Part shown: positions 1 to 34,015 of the stretch, one piece after another
Layout of the letters: each line of letters starts with the position of its first letter
How positions within the stretch are numbered: position 1 is the stretch's first letter
IMG/VR virus record: IMGVR_UViG_3300025387_000007
Location: 1 to 34,015 of that record
From: a virus
Taxonomy: Duplodnaviria; Caudoviricetes
Length of the DNA stretch: 34,015 bases
Strand: one strand, 5' to 3'
The notes under the pieces: generated by a model
Seen by the model: the letters and a program-made list of their open reading frames with translations, nothing else
Databases searched by the model: none
What the model was told of the DNA's origin: nothing
Translations under genes and position numbers: made by a program

Positions 1-33
1 CTGAAGCTGTGGCCGTTGTGGTCAGGCTGCCAA
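1..33. repeat. 33-nt terminal overlap (copy at 33983-34015), most likely an assembler k-mer overlap
   Basis: CTGAAGCTGTGGCCGTTGTGGTCAGGCTGCCAA at both ends; it lies inside the 75-bp tandem repeat. Confidence 0.9.
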
Positions 34-200
34 GAGTGAGCGTCAAGCCACCCGTGGTTGGCGTGGGTGCTGTGGCTGAAGCTGTGGCCGTTGTGGTCAG
101 GCTGCCAAGAGTGAGCGTCAAGCCACCCGTGGTTGGCGTGGGTGCTGCGCTGGCGGCGGTGCCAGTGAGCGACACCGGGCCCAAGGTGACGGTGAGCCTT
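1..200. repeat. 75-bp (25-aa) coding tandem repeat, left part
   Basis: Sequence at 1 recurs at 76; unit LTLTLGSLTTTATASATAPTPTTGG on the minus strand. Confidence 0.92.
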
Positions 201-319
201 GCCGTGCTGGTGGGTGTGGCCTGTGGCTGCACCGCACCGATGGACACAAAGCTCAGGCTGGTGCCCGGGGACGTGCCCGGCTTAACCGCACCAATCGAAA
301 GGTAGCCTTGACTCGCCAA
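1..319 (-). CDS. 5' part of the repeat-stalk/tail-terminator fusion protein (continues at the window end down to 33108; ~397 aa as assembled); missed by the ORF track
   Basis: TTG at 319 preceded by GAGGT; reads MASQGYLSIGAVKPGTSPGTSLSFVSIGAVQPQ...LTLTLGSLTTTATAS; same frame as ORF 33108..33953 across the junction. Confidence 0.85.
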   Translation of the reverse strand, partial: MASQGYLSIGAVKPGTSPGTSLSFVSIGAVQPQATPTSTARLTVTLGPVSLTGTAASAAPTPTTGGLTLTLGSLTTTATASATAPTPTTGGLTLTLGSLTTTATAS

Positions 320-1702
320 TTAGACCTCAAACTGGCCGGGGAAGCCAGCCTGCCGTGAGAGTGCGGTGGTCGTCAGGCTGAAATCGTGCGATGCCGCTGC
401 CGTGAACGGTGATGAGACTTCGGCAATCGTGCTGCCGAAAATCTGCTGAGCCGAGAAGCTATTGGTTTGGCCCGATGTGCAGTTTGCGAAAGCATTGTTC
501 AGCAAGGCCACGGTATGAGTTGCGCCGTTGCCGTTGATGCCGTAGCCGCTGCAATTCACGAACAGATTGTTGGCGATGATGCCGCCTGTTGTGCCGTATC
601 GTAGCCAGATGCCATCGGACGATGAGTTGTAAATCGTGTTGTTCACGATTGTGACAAAGGCATTTGTGTTTTGCATTGACAGCGAAACGCCGGCCGTTGA
701 GTCGAAGACGCTGTTTTGAATTGTGCCGCCATAAAAGATCAGATTGCTTGCACCTCGATAGGTGCAACCTTCCATGACGAGCGTACCGGAAATCTGTAAA
801 CCAGCGCCTGATGAAACGCCGAAGAATCCGCACCCGATGACCTCAAGCGTGCCGGACGATGTTGAAGCAATCGCAACGCGTAATGTGCTGGTGAACCTGC
901 ATCGGTACGCCTGGACTGTTCCCGCTCCGCTGAAAACCACGGCTGCCTGAGTGTTCGCCGGGCCGGTGCCCGGACCAGTAAATTCCAGATTCGAGAGTGT
1001 CGTATAGTTGGACAGGACGAACTGAGTACTGCTTGTGGTGGTGATCTGAGGTCTTGAGCCTGTGACCGTCGTTCCGCTGGTGTTGATCAGCGTGCCGCCC
1101 ACGTTGGCGCAATTGTCGATATCAGCCACGCCGCTGGTGATGGTGCTGTAGTAGCCACGCCACCAAATCGGTTTTGCTACCAGGCCCACGGGCAGCGTGA
1201 TGGTTGCGGCAGAGATCGCATACGTACCGGCAAGGATATTGACGCGGAGGCCGGTGTACGTGGAACCCGTCATCGCACCTGAGAGCGATGGCGTCGTCCC
1301 GTTCATCGCATAGCCGCTGTTCGTGATGGCGAACGATGAGCCCCAAGCACCACCGATTCGGCAGTTCACGGTTCCCGTCAGCGACGATGGCGAGCCTAGG
1401 CCGGTTGTACTGTAGTAAGGTGGGGTGGTACTGCACGATACCGTGATGATCGAGCTCGTACCGTCTACGGTCGCTACGGTGCCTGTCATGCGGGCGGCTG
1501 TGTCGCCCGTGTTGCTGAACGCTACCCATGCACCGACCGACGTACCTGAAAACGCGCCCGTGGTGCCCGCCGTGAAGGTGAACACCCCGGTCGTCGTATT
1601 CAGGCTGATTGTCCCTGAGATCGACGAAGACGGAGTGGTGGTATCCGTCCCCGCGTTGAGGTCCGATCCGGTCGTCTGCATGTACAGATCAAGGAGAGCC
1701 AT
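320..1702 (-). CDS. Thr/Ser/Gly-rich virion protein with a C-terminal right-handed parallel beta-helix (pectin-lyase-like)
   Basis: 460 aa; repeats such as IVNNTIYN..SDGI, IANNLFVNCSGYGI, LLNNAFAN, ending PFTAAASHDFSL..RQAGFPG; lies among virion genes. Confidence 0.75.
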   Translation of the reverse strand: MALLDLYMQTTGSDLNAGTDTTTPSSSISGTISLNTTTGVFTFTAGTTGAFSGTSVGAWVAFSNTGDTAARMTGTVATVDGTSSIITVSCSTTPPYYSTTGLGSPSSLTGTVNCRIGGAWGSSFAITNSGYAMNGTTPSLSGAMTGSTYTGLRVNILAGTYAISAATITLPVGLVAKPIWWRGYYSTITSGVADIDNCANVGGTLINTSGTTVTGSRPQITTTSSTQFVLSNYTTLSNLEFTGPGTGPANTQAAVVFSGAGTVQAYRCRFTSTLRVAIASTSSGTLEVIGCGFFGVSSGAGLQISGTLVMEGCTYRGASNLIFYGGTIQNSVFDSTAGVSLSMQNTNAFVTIVNNTIYNSSSDGIWLRYGTTGGIIANNLFVNCSGYGINGNGATHTVALLNNAFANCTSGQTNSFSAQQIFGSTIAEVSSPFTAAASHDFSLTTTALSRQAGFPGQFEV

Positions 1703-2028
1703 TACTGAGGATATCCGTTAACCTGAATGGCGTTAGCCTGCTGAACGGCGGTGGTTGTTGCGAGTGCCACGTTTGCGGCCTGGCATTCGGTAAGGAAGAC
1801 AACGACCTGCCCCACGTTGATGGGTGGGCGTCCATCGACGCTTGACCCGTCGTCAATGACCTGTGTCTGATCGGTGACGGCTTGAAGAATTGCCAAGATG
1901 CCTTGCCCAGTGCTTGTAGCCAGCACATGCTGAACGGCCAACGAGAGCCGAACGATATCATCGGCAAGCGGGCGAAGAGCCTCATTGCAGAACCGAGCGA
2001 CCTGAGGATTTGAGTAGAGCGTTGCCAT
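1702..2028 (-). CDS. Hypothetical virion-module protein (108 aa, MATLYSNPQV...)
   Basis: ATG at 2028 directly after the upstream stop; TAATG overlap with the next gene. Confidence 0.7.
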   Translation of the reverse strand: MATLYSNPQVARFCNEALRPLADDIVRLSLAVQHVLATSTGQGILAILQAVTDQTQVIDDGSSVDGRPPINVGQVVVFLTECQAANVALATTTAVQQANAIQVNGYPQ

Positions 2029-16536: not shown

Positions 16537-16729
16537 GGCAGGGAATTTGGCAGGCTAAAAACTGGACAAGAGTCAATTCCTGCATAAAAATACACAAGCT
16601 CAAACCCCTTAGAAAATAGCGTTTTGCCTGTTTTTCAGGGTGTTCTGCGGTCACTCGACATTATCGCGCATAATGTTGGGTGTGCTACAATTCAGACATG
16701 AACAGCACAATGGCAGGGAATTCGGCAGG
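16537..16729. other. Candidate attP: arm-type repeats flanking an inverted-repeat core
   Basis: GGCAGGGAATT(T/C)GGCAGG at 16537-16554 and 16712-16729; core ACATTA-TCGCGCA-TAATGT at 16658-16676; non-coding and directly upstream of int. Confidence 0.65.
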
Positions 16730-16744
16730 AATGAGGTTTTGACC

Positions 16745-17845
16745 ATGGCGCGTACACCTGGACCTTGGTACAGAAAGAGCCGTCGGGAATGGCGGGTCGA
16801 AATCGGGGGCGTTCAGCATTTGTTGCACAAGGGCGGCCCGGAAGATCGCGAGATAGCCCAAGAAGAGTTTCATAGGTTGATGGTGGAGCTGAATGAAGAG
16901 AAGAGAGCCCAGGAGAAAGCCGCAGCCACGCCGCCTGTTGTCGGGGCTGTTGCTTTGCGTTACCTGGATCTCTTGGAGCGTCGGCTCAATGATGGCGAGC
17001 TTACCGAGTCGCACTATTACTCGACAGTCTACATGGTCAAGCGGTTCGTGAAGGTGCTGGGCAATTGGCAGTTCAATGAAGTTCAAGCCGAAGACATTCT
17101 TGAGTGGCTCAACAAGGGCGGGAAAAAAGCACCCTGGAACGCGACAACGCGCAGGCTCGCGGTTGGTGTGATTCGCGGCCTTTGGCGATTCGCCAGCTCG
17201 GTGAAGATTCCCGCCGGCAATCCTTTTGAAGCCCTCAAGCTGGCCCCGGCCAAACGGCGTGAGGCTATCCCCACCCGTGAGCAGTTTGATGAGCTGCTTG
17301 GAGAGCTTGAGTTTGCCGAGGCGCGGGAAGTGCTGCGGTTTGTGGCTGCGGTCGGGTGCCGGCCTGGGGAGGCGTTCAAACTGGAAGCGTCAATGATTGA
17401 TTGGGATCGATCGGTCGCCGTCATGCACAGCAAGACCACCAACAAAACAGGCAAGCTCAGGGTGCTTTACCTGCCAGCCGAATGGATGCCCAGGCTAAAG
17501 GATCTGGCCCAACGACACCCCGAAGGGCCGATCTTTAGGGCGCCTCATGGTGGCATGTGGTCGCGTGACCTGATTAGCTACCACATTCGCAAAGTGGCCA
17601 AAAACCAGAACTGGCCCTGGGCGACCACGTATGCCCTTCGCCATTTATTTGTTACTGAAGCTTTGCGTGCCCAGGTGCCGATTGCCCACGTTGCCGCCCT
17701 GGTCGGACACACATCAACCGAGATGATATCCAAACACTATTCCCATTTAACGCGACATGACGAAGACTTGCATGCAGCTTTGCAGCAAGCCCTCGCCACG
17801 CGCGAAGATCGAAAAGCGATCCGGCAGGCCAGAAAGAAAGGCTAG
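16745..17845 (+). CDS. int: Tyrosine integrase (366 aa from MARTPGPW)
   Basis: GCRPGE (Arg), SKT (Lys), YALRH (H-x-x-R variant), VGH, KHY (Tyr); N-terminal arm-binding region. Confidence 0.95.
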   Translation: MARTPGPWYRKSRREWRVEIGGVQHLLHKGGPEDREIAQEEFHRLMVELNEEKRAQEKAAATPPVVGAVALRYLDLLERRLNDGELTESHYYSTVYMVKRFVKVLGNWQFNEVQAEDILEWLNKGGKKAPWNATTRRLAVGVIRGLWRFASSVKIPAGNPFEALKLAPAKRREAIPTREQFDELLGELEFAEAREVLRFVAAVGCRPGEAFKLEASMIDWDRSVAVMHSKTTNKTGKLRVLYLPAEWMPRLKDLAQRHPEGPIFRAPHGGMWSRDLISYHIRKVAKNQNWPWATTYALRHLFVTEALRAQVPIAHVAALVGHTSTEMISKHYSHLTRHDEDLHAALQQALATREDRKAIRQARKKG

Positions 17846-21980: not shown

Positions 21981-22825
21981 CCCGATCTCCCCAGTTGTGC
22001 GAGAATTTGCCGCTCCATAACCTCAAGCCGTGCTTTCTCTGCTTCCTCCTCCTCGGGTGTGGGAGGCGGTGCTTTTCCCTTGGTGTGCGTGGTTGGTTTG
22101 GCCACCGGTGGAATACCGCCCGGCCAGGACTCGATAATCTTGGCCGCGTAGTTCCAGGGCTTGTTCGGCAGCCGATCCAGTGCAGCCACAATCCCCCAGG
22201 CCGCCCGCCATGCGTCTACCGTGTGTGTGCCTGATCGGACCCTCTGGGCAGCCTGGCTACCCCAGGAGCCGCCCGTGACCTGGTCGATGTAGAGAGAGAG
22301 CTGGCGAATTTCTTCGGGGTCGGTCTCTCTCGCTTTTTCCGAGAGTGAGAGATCCGATAGGATCTCGAACTCTTCTGATCTGATCTGATCTTTATCTGAT
22401 CTGATCTGATCTAAACCGTTACCGTAACGTTTCGGTAACGTTTCAGTAACGTTACATGCCGTTACATCCTCTGGTGGCGTAACATTACATGGTTGTTTCG
22501 TTGCCTTCTTGGATGTCCGATGCCTGCGGACCCGCTCGGCTGAACTGTCGGAGTTGGGTTGCCAATGCTCCCAATCGTGGACCTTGTACCCGTTCCCGAT
22601 GTCATCAACCAGCTTTTCCGAGATCAGGTTGACCATGTGGCCGCCAAGTTCCACCTCGGTCATGCGGAGCCAGAAAGCAAGGGTTTTGAATGGGGGCAAG
22701 ATGCCCCCGCAGTCGTAACGGGTGGCCGAGCAAAGGATGAGCACCCAGGATCGAAAGGTAGCTGGGGGCAATCCGTGCACCTTCGGCGAATCCAGAACGG
22801 CTTCCCAGAGTCTCAACCACTGCAC
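21977..22825 (-). CDS. Replication initiator / replisome organiser
   Basis: WLRLW...SPKV..L; VHDWEHWQ..SSAERVRRHR; central low-complexity region encoded by iterons. Confidence 0.85.
   Translation of the reverse strand: MQWLRLWEAVLDSPKVHGLPPATFRSWVLILCSATRYDCGGILPPFKTLAFWLRMTEVELGGHMVNLISEKLVDDIGNGYKVHDWEHWQPNSDSSAERVRRHRTSKKATKQPCNVTPPEDVTACNVTETLPKRYGNGLDQIRSDKDQIRSEEFEILSDLSLSEKARETDPEEIRQLSLYIDQVTGGSWGSQAAQRVRSGTHTVDAWRAAWGIVAALDRLPNKPWNYAAKIIESWPGGIPPVAKPTTHTKGKAPPPTPEEEEAEKARLEVMERQILAQLGRSG
22374..22489. repeat. Iterons, candidate replication origin inside the initiator gene
   Basis: TCTGATCTGATCTGATCT x2 (22374, 22395); GTAACGTT(T/A)C(G/A) x3 at 11-bp period (22424-22456) plus GTAACATTACA (22479). 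Confidence 0.75.
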
Positions 22826-32694: not shown

Positions 32695-33111
32695 CTAAGG
32701 TCGGGAGTAACGCATGGTGAAAGAAACCGTGGCCACCCGAACGGCCCGGTCAGAGCCGTCATTGAGTCGCATGTATTGGGAGTCAACGCTTTGGGGCGTG
32801 GTCTCCAGGACCGTCACACCGCCGCCGAGAACGCCTCGAAAATCAGCCCGGAAGAAATGGGCTTGGATGCGGTCGAGGATGATGCGGGTGGTGGCTTTGT
32901 TGTTCGTGATCACATCGAGGCCGACGCTCTCGGTGCGGACCTTGCCACGGCCAGCCAGGTGAACCGGCTGGTCTTCGGTGGTGGTGTGGTAGACAATGGC
33001 GGGGATGCTGGCTTTTTGCGGAAGCGTGGACTCGTAGACCCGGTTGCCAATGAGGCCGGGCAGGTCTTGAATCGTGAGGATTTCCGCAACAAGCGACTCT
33101 TCAAAAGTCAC
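32695..33111 (-). CDS. Tail terminator (DUF3168-like), stand-alone copy
   Basis: EESLVAEI...LIGNRVY..LPQ...PAIVY; directly upstream of the tube gene. Confidence 0.85.
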   Translation of the reverse strand: MTFEESLVAEILTIQDLPGLIGNRVYESTLPQKASIPAIVYHTTTEDQPVHLAGRGKVRTESVGLDVITNNKATTRIILDRIQAHFFRADFRGVLGGGVTVLETTPQSVDSQYMRLNDGSDRAVRVATVSFTMRYSRP

Positions 33112-34015
33112 TGGATGGCGTACCGCATTTTAAGGGTAACGGTGGCAAGTCTGACCGCTCGGTCAGTGCCATCGGCTAAACGCACGTAACTGGTATCCAC
33201 GCTGTCGAGGATCGTTTCCGCGACGTACACACCACCACCGAGATTGCCCCGGTAATCGGCCATGACGAAATGGTCTTCAATCGCGTCTTGGATGGCTCGC
33301 GTTGTGGACTTGCTCAGGCTCAGGAGGTCGAAAGTCACGGTTTCCGCTCGGATCGAGCTTTGACCCGTGAGCCAAATTGGCCCAATCTCCTGCCCGGTGT
33401 GATACACCAGGGCGGGGAGTGCAGACTTCTGGGGCAAGATGCTCTCATAGATGCGATTGCCTACCAGCGAGGTCAGGGCGGGGATTGTCGCCAGTTCGGC
33501 CACCAGCGATTGCTCAAAGCTGATATGGTTGCCAATGCCAGCCCCAGCCAGTGATACACCGCCAAGGGTGGTGGTCAGGCTGGCCGTTGTTGGTGCTGGT
33601 GCGGTGCTCGACGCCGTTGCCGATGTGGACAGGCTTCCAAGTGTGAGCGACAAGCCACCCGACGTTGGCGTGGGTGCTGCTGCTGTGGCCGTGCCTGCTG
33701 CTCCCAGGCTGCCAAGTGTGAGCGACAAGCCACCCGACGTTGGCGTGGGTGCTGCTGCTGTGGCCGTGCCGGATGCACCCAGGCTGCCAAGAGTGAGCGT
33801 CAAGCCACCCGTGGTTGGCGTGGGTGCTGTGGCTGAAGCTGTGGCCGTTGTGGTCAGGCTGCCAAGAGTGAGCGTCAAGCCACCCGTGGTTGGCGTGGGT
33901 GCTGCTGCTGTGGCCGTGCCGGATGCACCCAGGCTGCCAAGAGTGAGCGTCAAGCCACCCGTGGTTGGCGTGGGTGCTGTGGCTGAAGCTGTGGCCGTTG
34001 TGGTCAGGCTGCCAA
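33108..34015 (-). CDS. 3' part of the repeat-stalk protein, ending in a second DUF3168-like domain
   Basis: 25-aa repeats then 138 aa aligning without gaps to 32695..33111 (75/138 identical by hand count). Confidence 0.88.
   Translation of the reverse strand, partial: GSLTTTATASATAPTPTTGGLTLTLGSLGASGTATAAAPTPTTGGLTLTLGSLTTTATASATAPTPTTGGLTLTLGSLGASGTATAAAPTPTSGGLSLTLGSLGAAGTATAAAPTPTSGGLSLTLGSLSTSATASSTAPAPTTASLTTTLGGVSLAGAGIGNHISFEQSLVAELATIPALTSLVGNRIYESILPQKSALPALVYHTGQEIGPIWLTGQSSIRAETVTFDLLSLSKSTTRAIQDAIEDHFVMADYRGNLGGGVYVAETILDSVDTSYVRLADGTDRAVRLATVTLKMRYAIQ
33575..34015. repeat. 75-bp coding tandem repeat, right part (alternating variants LGASGTATAAA / LTTTATASATA)
   Basis: Units identical at 150-bp period near the end, diverging towards 33575. 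Confidence 0.92.

What the first reader, a model, noticed from the sequence alone, without database searches (positions are those of the whole stretch)
220..420. Beta-helix protein's terminal motif is on the other side of a single in-frame stop: split domain or readthrough
Seen: the 460-aa beta-helix ORF ends ...RQAGFPGQFEV-TAA and the very next codon (TTG, 319) opens the stalk gene in the same frame: LASQGYLSIGAVKP...FVSIGAVQP. Known: such beta-helices commonly end DF.L....AG...(D/S)IGA(V/Y)(Q/E) in one chain. Here that motif lies after the stop and is present twice. A GAGGT SD precedes the TTG, which favours separate translation. Inference: the stalk protein may donate the missing strand in trans (donor-strand docking of one or two beta-helix heads); alternatives are TAA readthrough giving an ~860-aa fusion, or a recent nonsense mutation.
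Basis: partly seen in the sequence, partly recalled or inferred. Interest (0 to 1): 0.8.

Follow-up and report, generated by a model that had tools for sequence, protein, structure and literature searches.

The report
Split beta-helix cap docks phage heads
In this freshwater phage and many relatives, a beta-helix protein is encoded without its last ten-residue segment and the next gene carries that segment twice, so the second protein, a likely fibre stalk, likely plugs into and holds the beta-helix heads; stop-codon readthrough does not explain it.

Summary
TAA at 322-320 is followed in frame by TTG-319, with GAGGT 4 nt upstream, and no run covering the codon shows a sense codon. Readthrough and recent nonsense are rejected: all 16 aligned near relatives end at the same point, and only 5 of 17 distinct split junctions are in frame. 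Most distant relatives (96 of 151 by a strict pattern) carry a Y-x-D-I-G-A-V-Q-type cap segment in the same chain; in a model it maps onto the last ~10 residues of pectate lyase Pel9A, which the window's head lacks. In 17 of 17 split loci the next gene carries this segment as a tandem pair, at its start or up to 370 residues inside. The split arose more than once (AU test p = 7e-8). Here the pair sits on a Thr/Gly-rich stalk ending in a tail-terminator domain. Best reading: the stalk completes the heads' cap in trans and tethers probably two heads at the neck. The segment is a cap loop, not a donor beta-strand. An unchecked earlier scan note describes the same arrangement in another genome.

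The parts
320..1702 (-). Head: 460-aa right-handed beta-helix protein of Pel9A-like fold that lacks the last ~10-residue cap segment
   Evidence: Beta_helix E 5e-9; pLDDT 92; Z 25.6, rmsd 2.8, 303 aligned, to 1ru4 37-415
320..322 (-). TAA stop (context TAAT); a stop at this point is conserved in relatives
324..328 (-). GAGGT Shine-Dalgarno-like site inside the head's final Glu-Val codons; present 4-9 nt before the next start in 14 of 16 split-locus records
1..319 (-). 5' part of the stalk gene (TTG start): peptide pair, then Thr/Gly/Pro-rich 25-aa repeats; continues across the contig ends
278..307 (-). Cap peptide copy 1, GYLSIGAVKP
224..253 (-). Cap peptide copy 2, SFVSIGAVQP, 18 aa after copy 1
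33630..34015 (-). Continuation of the stalk's 75-bp (25-aa) repeat array; 7 PTPT(T/S)GGL units in the joined frame
33108..33510 (-). C-terminal tail-terminator (gp17-like) domain of the stalk protein, the likely virion anchor
   Evidence: PF11367, 25.8 bits vs cut-off 24.5; phrog_347, E 5e-4
32695..33111 (-). Second, stand-alone tail-terminator paralogue, directly followed by tail tube and tail chaperone genes
   Evidence: (phrog_347, phrog_78)
1702..2028 (-). 108-aa gene overlapping the head start (TAATG); homologues lie upstream of the head in all 14 window-clade split-locus records searched that have upstream DNA, and in the distant split locus L055
2344..2730 (-). 128-aa small virion structural protein (phrog_3758), part of the recurring cassette

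Best explanation
The head gene ends at a real stop about ten residues short of the family's usual C-terminal cap segment, and the separately translated stalk protein carries that segment twice, likely inserting each copy into the vacant cap site of a head and so likely tethering two beta-helix heads to a stalk that is predicted to be anchored at the head-tail neck. Shown by sequence and calls: the stop; a ribosome-binding site inside the head's last codons; the missing segment is the one that 96 of 151 relatives carry in cis; the pair sits on the next gene in 17 of 17 split loci; the window's stalk ends in a tail-terminator domain. Inferred: physical binding of peptide to head; two heads per pair (one head engaging both copies, or a head dimer, is the sub-alternative); place on the virion; a role in binding host surface glycans (the helix body is the variable part, 29% identity against 52-57% in the flanks, and has no conserved Lys or Asp, so adhesin is likelier than lyase). 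Because the socket is the head's own conserved cap, heads and stalks can be exchanged at this junction.
For: Conserved truncation: 16 of 16 near relatives aligned. Segment in cis in 96 of 151 proteins that have the cap region; 27 more extend with variant or no motif. The cis relative P0138 models the segment with pLDDT about 80-93 and aligns to Pel9A up to its last residue 425, while the window head aligns only to 415. Head-first loci: pair on the next gene in 16 of 16 records, 12 distinct. Peptide-first or junction scans: strict pattern 6 of 6 viral and 1 of 1 genome hits lie beside a truncated head; D-type pair pattern 3 of 3; a junction pattern blind to copy number gave 9 single-chain, 3 split and 1 chance hit, and all 3 split ones have two copies. 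Single-chain heads have no pair on the next gene (7 of 7 loci; 7 of 7 next ORFs called). The pair moves to residues 99-407 of unrelated stalks, and L006 has two pairs. Head end and peptide diverge together in L007. Independent origins: AU p = 7e-8, and the L055 head nests among single-chain heads with support 98. Swapping: L010 has a 98%-identical head on a different stalk; L004 has a nearly identical stalk and capsid genes with a 41%-identical head.
Against: The truncated head is modelled confidently on its own (mean pLDDT 92, last block 87), so the model shows no need for the peptide. A looser pair pattern gave 17 viral hits, 10 of them with no head within 3 kb; these lack the Y/F-x-S/D-I context, but they show the short core alone is not specific. 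A virion anchor is recognised by Pfam only in the window and L004 (above cut-off) and weakly in L005; 6 of 11 other-locus stalks scanned had no Pfam hit and 2 end in weak fn3 hits. In the window the start is a weak TTG only 4 nt from the GAGGT, and copy 1 has K for Q. Six other truncated proteins (P0024, P0035, P0058, P0067, P0104, P0135) have no genomic context. No expression or virion data.
Confidence: 0.77

Rival explanations
1. Programmed TAA readthrough makes an ~860-aa head-stalk fusion in which copy 1 completes the cap in cis.
For: In the window the frame is continuous across the stop, and the joined length is 858 codons. In-frame junctions also occur in L007, L010, L012/L018 and L053. 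Low-level leakage in those phages cannot be excluded.
Against: 12 of 17 distinct junctions are out of frame (offsets 1, 2, 5, 11, 124), about what chance gives. The stop is TAA or TAG in the window's clade and TGA in L007. In-frame L012 has the motif at residue 370. TAA ends 7 of 15 genes checked in this genome. TAAT is a strong terminator (recalled, not from a call). A ribosome-binding site is kept in the head's last codons.
Confidence: 0.03
2. Recent nonsense mutation or assembly error in a normally fused gene.
For: Most distant relatives are single-chain, and the linker length across the stop resembles theirs (8-10 aa in 36 measured).
Against: The stop is present in 5 of 5 runs whose contigs bridge it and at the same point in relatives down to 35% identity.
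Confidence: 0.005
3. The heads no longer need the cap and attach by another route (for example through the conserved 108-aa upstream protein or their N-terminal domain); the pair binds some other partner or only helps folding transiently.
For: Confident stand-alone model of the truncated head. The 108-aa gene accompanies heads in all split loci searched, and look-alikes precede several single-chain heads.
Against: The pair occurs beside truncated heads in every well-formed case and never beside single-chain heads; it is kept when moved hundreds of residues; it co-diverges with the head end in L007; the same outcome arose independently.
Confidence: 0.12
4. Head and peptide do bind, but the complex is not a virion appendage (for example a soluble product released at lysis or displayed on the infected cell).
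For: The C-terminal ends of the stalks vary and many have no recognised virion domain; L056 has only a 57-aa carrier.
Against: The cassette lies between head-closure and tail-terminator/tail-tube genes; the window's stalk ends in a tail-terminator domain and the cassette includes a phrog_3758 virion structural gene.
Confidence: 0.07

Closest known systems
Pectate lyase Pel9A (PDB 1ru4) and related PL9-type beta-helices (5olq/5olr, 5mqp)
   Same: Best fold match for both models (Z 25.6 and 25.2), including the C-terminal cap; the single-chain relative covers Pel9A to residue 425.
   Different: 13-18% identity; no conserved Lys or Asp in the helix body; the last ~10 residues are encoded on another gene, twice.
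Branched receptor-binding-protein systems of Klebsiella/Escherichia podophages (KP32, KP34, K1-5): conserved docking peptide plus T4gp10-like branching domain (PMC13352976, abstract; PMC6872550, passages)
   Same: A short conserved peptide (7-11 residues in some) attaches a separately encoded beta-helix protein to an anchored partner, allowing exchange of host-recognition parts.
   Different: Polarity is reversed: there the peptide is the N-terminus of the attached protein and the socket is a dedicated domain on the anchor; here the peptide is on the scaffold, is tandem, can be internal, and is homologous to the attached protein's own missing C-terminus.
Donor-strand complementation/exchange (TasA, PMC9674648, abstract; Tafi pili, 10.64898/2026.09.13.751334, passages; chaperone-usher pili, recalled)
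   Same: One chain completes the incomplete fold of another.
   Different: There the donor is a beta-strand completing a beta-sheet fold in a linear polymer; here it is a cap segment with no strand assigned on a beta-helix, displayed in pairs on a scaffold.
Neck passage structures of 936-group lactococcal siphophages (PMC6669499, passages)
   Same: Neck-anchored fibres ending in variable carbohydrate-binding modules, some pectin- or alginate-enzyme-like.
   Different: Single-chain trimeric fibres on a collar; no split cap, no tail-terminator fusion in the passages read.

Membership tests
Polysaccharide lyase family 9 (Pel9A) | Right-handed beta-helix with Pel9A topology | tested here: met
   Z 25.6, rmsd 2.8, 303 aligned
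Polysaccharide lyase family 9 (Pel9A) | Complete C-terminal cap in the same chain | tested here: not met
   Window head aligns to 415 of 425; cis relative to 425
Polysaccharide lyase family 9 (Pel9A) | Catalytic Lys and Ca-binding Asp cluster (feature recalled) | tested here: inconclusive
   No Lys above 6% and no Asp above 41% conservation at positions 220-425 in 17 clade members; residue-level structural mapping was not available
Branched RBP with conserved peptide (KP32/K1-5 type) | Docking peptide at the N-terminus of the attached RBP | tested here: not met
   The shared peptide is on the scaffold gene and matches the head's missing C-terminus
Branched RBP with conserved peptide (KP32/K1-5 type) | T4gp10-like branching domain on the anchored protein | tested here: inconclusive
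   No such Pfam or PHROG hit on the stalk; the stalk was not folded
Branched RBP with conserved peptide (KP32/K1-5 type) | Trimeric tailspike | not tested
   Best fold matches are non-phage enzymes; oligomeric state unknown
Donor-strand complementation | Donor is a beta-strand completing a beta-sheet fold | tested here: not met
   No strand assigned over residues 435-445 of the cis model; this is a prediction
Donor-strand complementation | The missing element of one chain is bound in trans from another chain | not testable with these tools
Programmed stop-codon readthrough | Conserved in-frame stop between the two parts | tested here: not met
   5 of 17 distinct junctions in frame
Tail completion/terminator gp17 (PF11367), stalk C-terminal domain | Score above the curated cut-off and position before the tail tube gene | tested here: met
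   25.8 vs 24.5 bits; gene order terminator, terminator, tail tube, chaperone
'Choice-of-anchor Q' C-terminal domain (name and motif recalled) | NCBIfam model match | tested here: inconclusive
   Not listed for 17 clade members or 20 single-chain relatives; no paper holds the term

The most novel reading that the evidence does not exclude
Phages have repeatedly turned the C-terminal cap of Pel9A-like beta-helices into a natural plug-and-socket pair: the head is cut before its last ten residues, the peptide is duplicated and placed anywhere on a carrier (long stalk, tail-terminator fusion or 57-aa adaptor), and each pair holds two exchangeable host-binding heads on the virion. This would be a widespread, undescribed way to build branched, swappable appendages, and a ready-made split-protein tag.
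Probability: 0.55. Interest if true: 0.85.

Novelty: new variant of a known kind. Interest (0 to 1): 0.68.

Why it matters
It gives a testable rule for how uncultured phages attach and swap beta-helix host-recognition proteins without the known N-terminal anchors or branching domains. It shows gene fission at one linker recurring in separate lineages, with a duplicated peptide in every split locus seen. It warns annotators that such in-frame stops are neither readthrough sites nor pseudogenes. The test is cheap: a recombinant head and a 10-residue peptide. If the pair binds tightly it is also a natural split-protein tag.

Tried and rejected
No RNA holder was listed for the region. No match in the GenBank phage collection by tblastn. 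The profile of six distant truncated heads found nothing in GTDB genomes, and in IMG/VR returned only single-chain loci; a DNA pattern for their ends found 0, so those six proteins lack context and are not counted as split loci. Sequence searches of the PDB gave only generic beta-helix hits or designed repeat proteins and none covering the motif. The Atlas search of the 108-aa protein gave only unnamed viral clusters. Loci dropped before counting: L008, L020, L021 (match only the N-terminal part and end in another domain), L017 (contig holds the N-terminal part only), L011 (contig ends 3 nt after the stop); L009, L015, L016 and L018 are copies or near-copies of L001, L005, L004 and L012. P0017 was left out of alignment A1 as partial; it ends at the same point. 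P0156, one of the 28 truncated proteins, ends differently and may be a fragment. One query was translated in the wrong frame and was ignored. The idea that stalk repeat type tracks the small 'bead' protein type holds only partly: L006 and L010 share a bead type but differ in repeats. Eight paper searches listed no description of this arrangement; the library lacks most subscription papers and no supplements were read.

Full report
Setting. The window is a whole 34,015-bp contig held in freshwater metagenome runs. It encodes an HK97-type capsid, head-tail adaptor, head closure, tail terminator, tail tube, chaperone and tape measure, that is, a siphovirus-like phage. Its ends overlap by 33 nt inside a 75-bp tandem array, so it is circular and is cut inside the gene in question.

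Observation. The head ORF (1702..320, 460 aa, Pfam Beta_helix) ends RQAGFPGQFEV-TAA and TTG follows at 319, with GAGGT 4 nt upstream. The downstream frame carries GYLSIGAVKP (307-278) and SFVSIGAVQP (253-224), then 25-aa repeats, and across the contig ends a tail-terminator domain; 397 aa in all. The only other in-frame starts in its first 130 nt lie at 247 and 232 and lack a ribosome-binding site. Of 8 runs laid, 5 have contigs bridging the stop and all keep TAA; two of these may be the source sample, and the contigs of X4 and X5 are relatives with 2 and 3 extra bases behind the stop.

The split is old and conserved. All 16 near-full-length relatives aligned (35-98% identity) end within one residue of the same point. 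In 16 locus records with downstream DNA (12 distinct) the next gene starts 0, 2, 3, 5 or 11 nt after the stop, and 14 keep GAGG inside the head's last codons. With five loci found from the peptide or junction side (L052-L056) there are 17 distinct junctions, 5 of them in frame. Readthrough and recent nonsense are therefore rejected as explanations.

What is missing from the head. Of 156 proteins retrieved (17, 139 further from the best 150 of 155), 5 lack the cap region. Of the other 151, 96 continue with a strict (D/S/E)-x-G-(A/G)-x-(Q/R/P) motif, 27 continue with a variant or none, and 28 stop within 3 residues of the window's end. A profile of the 96 single-chain segments ranks the two stalk copies 1st and 2nd among 51,908 ten-mers of the window, and picks the stalk copies first in 12 of 12 other split loci scanned. 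In a model of the single-chain relative P0138 the segment is ordered (pLDDT 93 for 431-440, 80 for 441-450) with no strand assigned. That model aligns to Pel9A residues 37-425, whereas the window head aligns to 37-415. So the head lacks the part equivalent to the last ~10 residues of a Pel9A-type cap, and the stalk carries it. Against a strict need for it, the truncated head alone is modelled at pLDDT 92.

The peptide travels with the truncation. The pair is on the next gene in 16 of 16 head-first records, at residue 9-10 or internally at 181-407, 18 aa apart in all but one pair (17 in L019); L006 has two pairs. A strict pair pattern hit 6 stretches in IMG/VR, all on contigs with a truncated head, and 1 in GTDB genomes, a Planctomycetales MAG contig where a truncated head lies 124 nt upstream; this is a host lead only. 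A looser pattern hit 17, of which 7 have a head and 10 do not. A D-type pair pattern hit 3, each directly behind a distant head cut before the motif, with spacings of 20, 14 and 19 aa counted from the printed sequences. A junction pattern blind to copy number gave 13 hits: 9 single-chain, 1 chance, 3 split; all 3 split have two copies (two of them were already known), and L056 has them on a 57-aa gene behind a 604-aa protein that shares the cap-like end but does not match the head profile. Single-chain heads have no pair on the next gene.

Origins. The window's clade of 17 truncated heads has support 97 (FastTree, trait columns left out). Holding this clade together with the L053 and L055 heads is rejected (p-AU 7e-8, 44 rows, quick tree), and L055 nests among single-chain heads. 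Six further proteins end at the same linker and also reject one origin (p-AU 0.0005), but their contigs could not be read.

Mechanism. Shown: two genes, the second with its own ribosome-binding site hidden in the first. Inferred: the peptide enters the vacant cap site, and two copies hold two heads, or one head or a head dimer with added avidity. In the window the stalk's terminator domain would place the appendage at the neck; a second plain terminator gene follows, so the ring may be mixed (speculation). The helix body is the variable part (29% identity against 52% and 57%) and has no conserved Lys or Asp, which suits an exchangeable glycan-binding head more than a lyase. Exchange is visible: L010 has a 98%-identical head on a different stalk, and L004 has nearly the same stalk and capsid genes with a 41%-identical head.

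Comparison with what is known. It works like peptide docking in branched receptor-binding systems (PMC13352976, abstract; PMC6872550, passages) and like fold complementation in donor-strand fibres (PMC9674648, abstract; 10.64898/2026.09.13.751334, passages), but it fails a defining feature of each: the peptide is on the scaffold, and it is the head's own cap loop. Neck fibres with variable binding modules are known (PMC6669499, passages). Passages of PMC13252515 gave nothing relevant. Eight searches (listings only) showed no description of this arrangement; supplements were not read. One unchecked note of this scan (e1-5935704) reaches the same reading in another genome; it is not independent support, and it means the arrangement is not unique to this window.

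Verdict. A real, conserved, repeatedly evolved split with strong genomic and structural-homology support for docking by cap completion (0.77); a new variant of a known kind; interest 0.68, limited by the lack of any direct binding or virion evidence.

Noticed in passing
window 2730-320 (-) and loci L002-L018, L052, L055: Recurring cassette: small structural gene (phrog_3758 here; phrog_8123 or phrog_644 types elsewhere), optional DUF433-like gene (2341-2030, E 0.006, below cut-off), 108-aa gene, head, stalk. It sits in phages with different capsid and tail modules.
   Followed up: partly
window 2730-2344 and stalk repeats; L005, L006, L010, L012, L052, L053: Stalk repeat type partly tracks the type of the small structural protein (LTLTLGSL-type with phrog_3758; SGG(I/L)-type with phrog_8123), which would fit beads threaded on the repeats; L006 and L010 share a bead type but differ in repeats.
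   Followed up: partly
window 2028-1702; L022/L023 3697-3996, L026 3646-3996, L027 3609-3995, L055 1680-1997: A ~100-130-aa gene lies directly upstream of both split and several single-chain heads; homology was shown for L055 (29%, E 5e-9) and only by eye for the single-chain loci. Candidate chaperone or head dimeriser.
   Followed up: partly
window 33510-33108 and 33111-32695: Two tail-terminator paralogues in tandem, one fused to the stalk and one plain.
   Followed up: no
proteins P0019-P0155, C-termini: Single-chain heads end, after the cap motif and a Gly linker, in short recurring tails (for example LLxHPGMxGG, IGTY, FHPL, VIVIED) that may themselves be anchoring peptides.
   Followed up: no
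L056 2532-2705 (reverse-complement coordinates): 57-aa gene made of two cap peptides and a short tail, behind a 604-aa protein with a cap-like end that does not match the head profile: a minimal adaptor.
   Followed up: partly
L040, L041, L044, L050: Four contigs share a ~340-aa ORF with a GIGAFQP...GAGAIQ stretch and no head within 3 kb; probably unrelated to this system.
   Followed up: no
window 22361-22453: Short tandem repeats with periods 5, 11 and 26.
   Followed up: no
window 16640-17845 (+): A 401-aa plus-strand ORF, the longest on that strand, in a genome whose recognised genes lie on the minus strand; may be a shadow frame.
   Followed up: no
window 318-352: The last ~35 nt of the head gene are shared at high identity by relatives that differ on both sides (runs X2 and X3): a possible recombination point for head/stalk exchange.
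   Followed up: no
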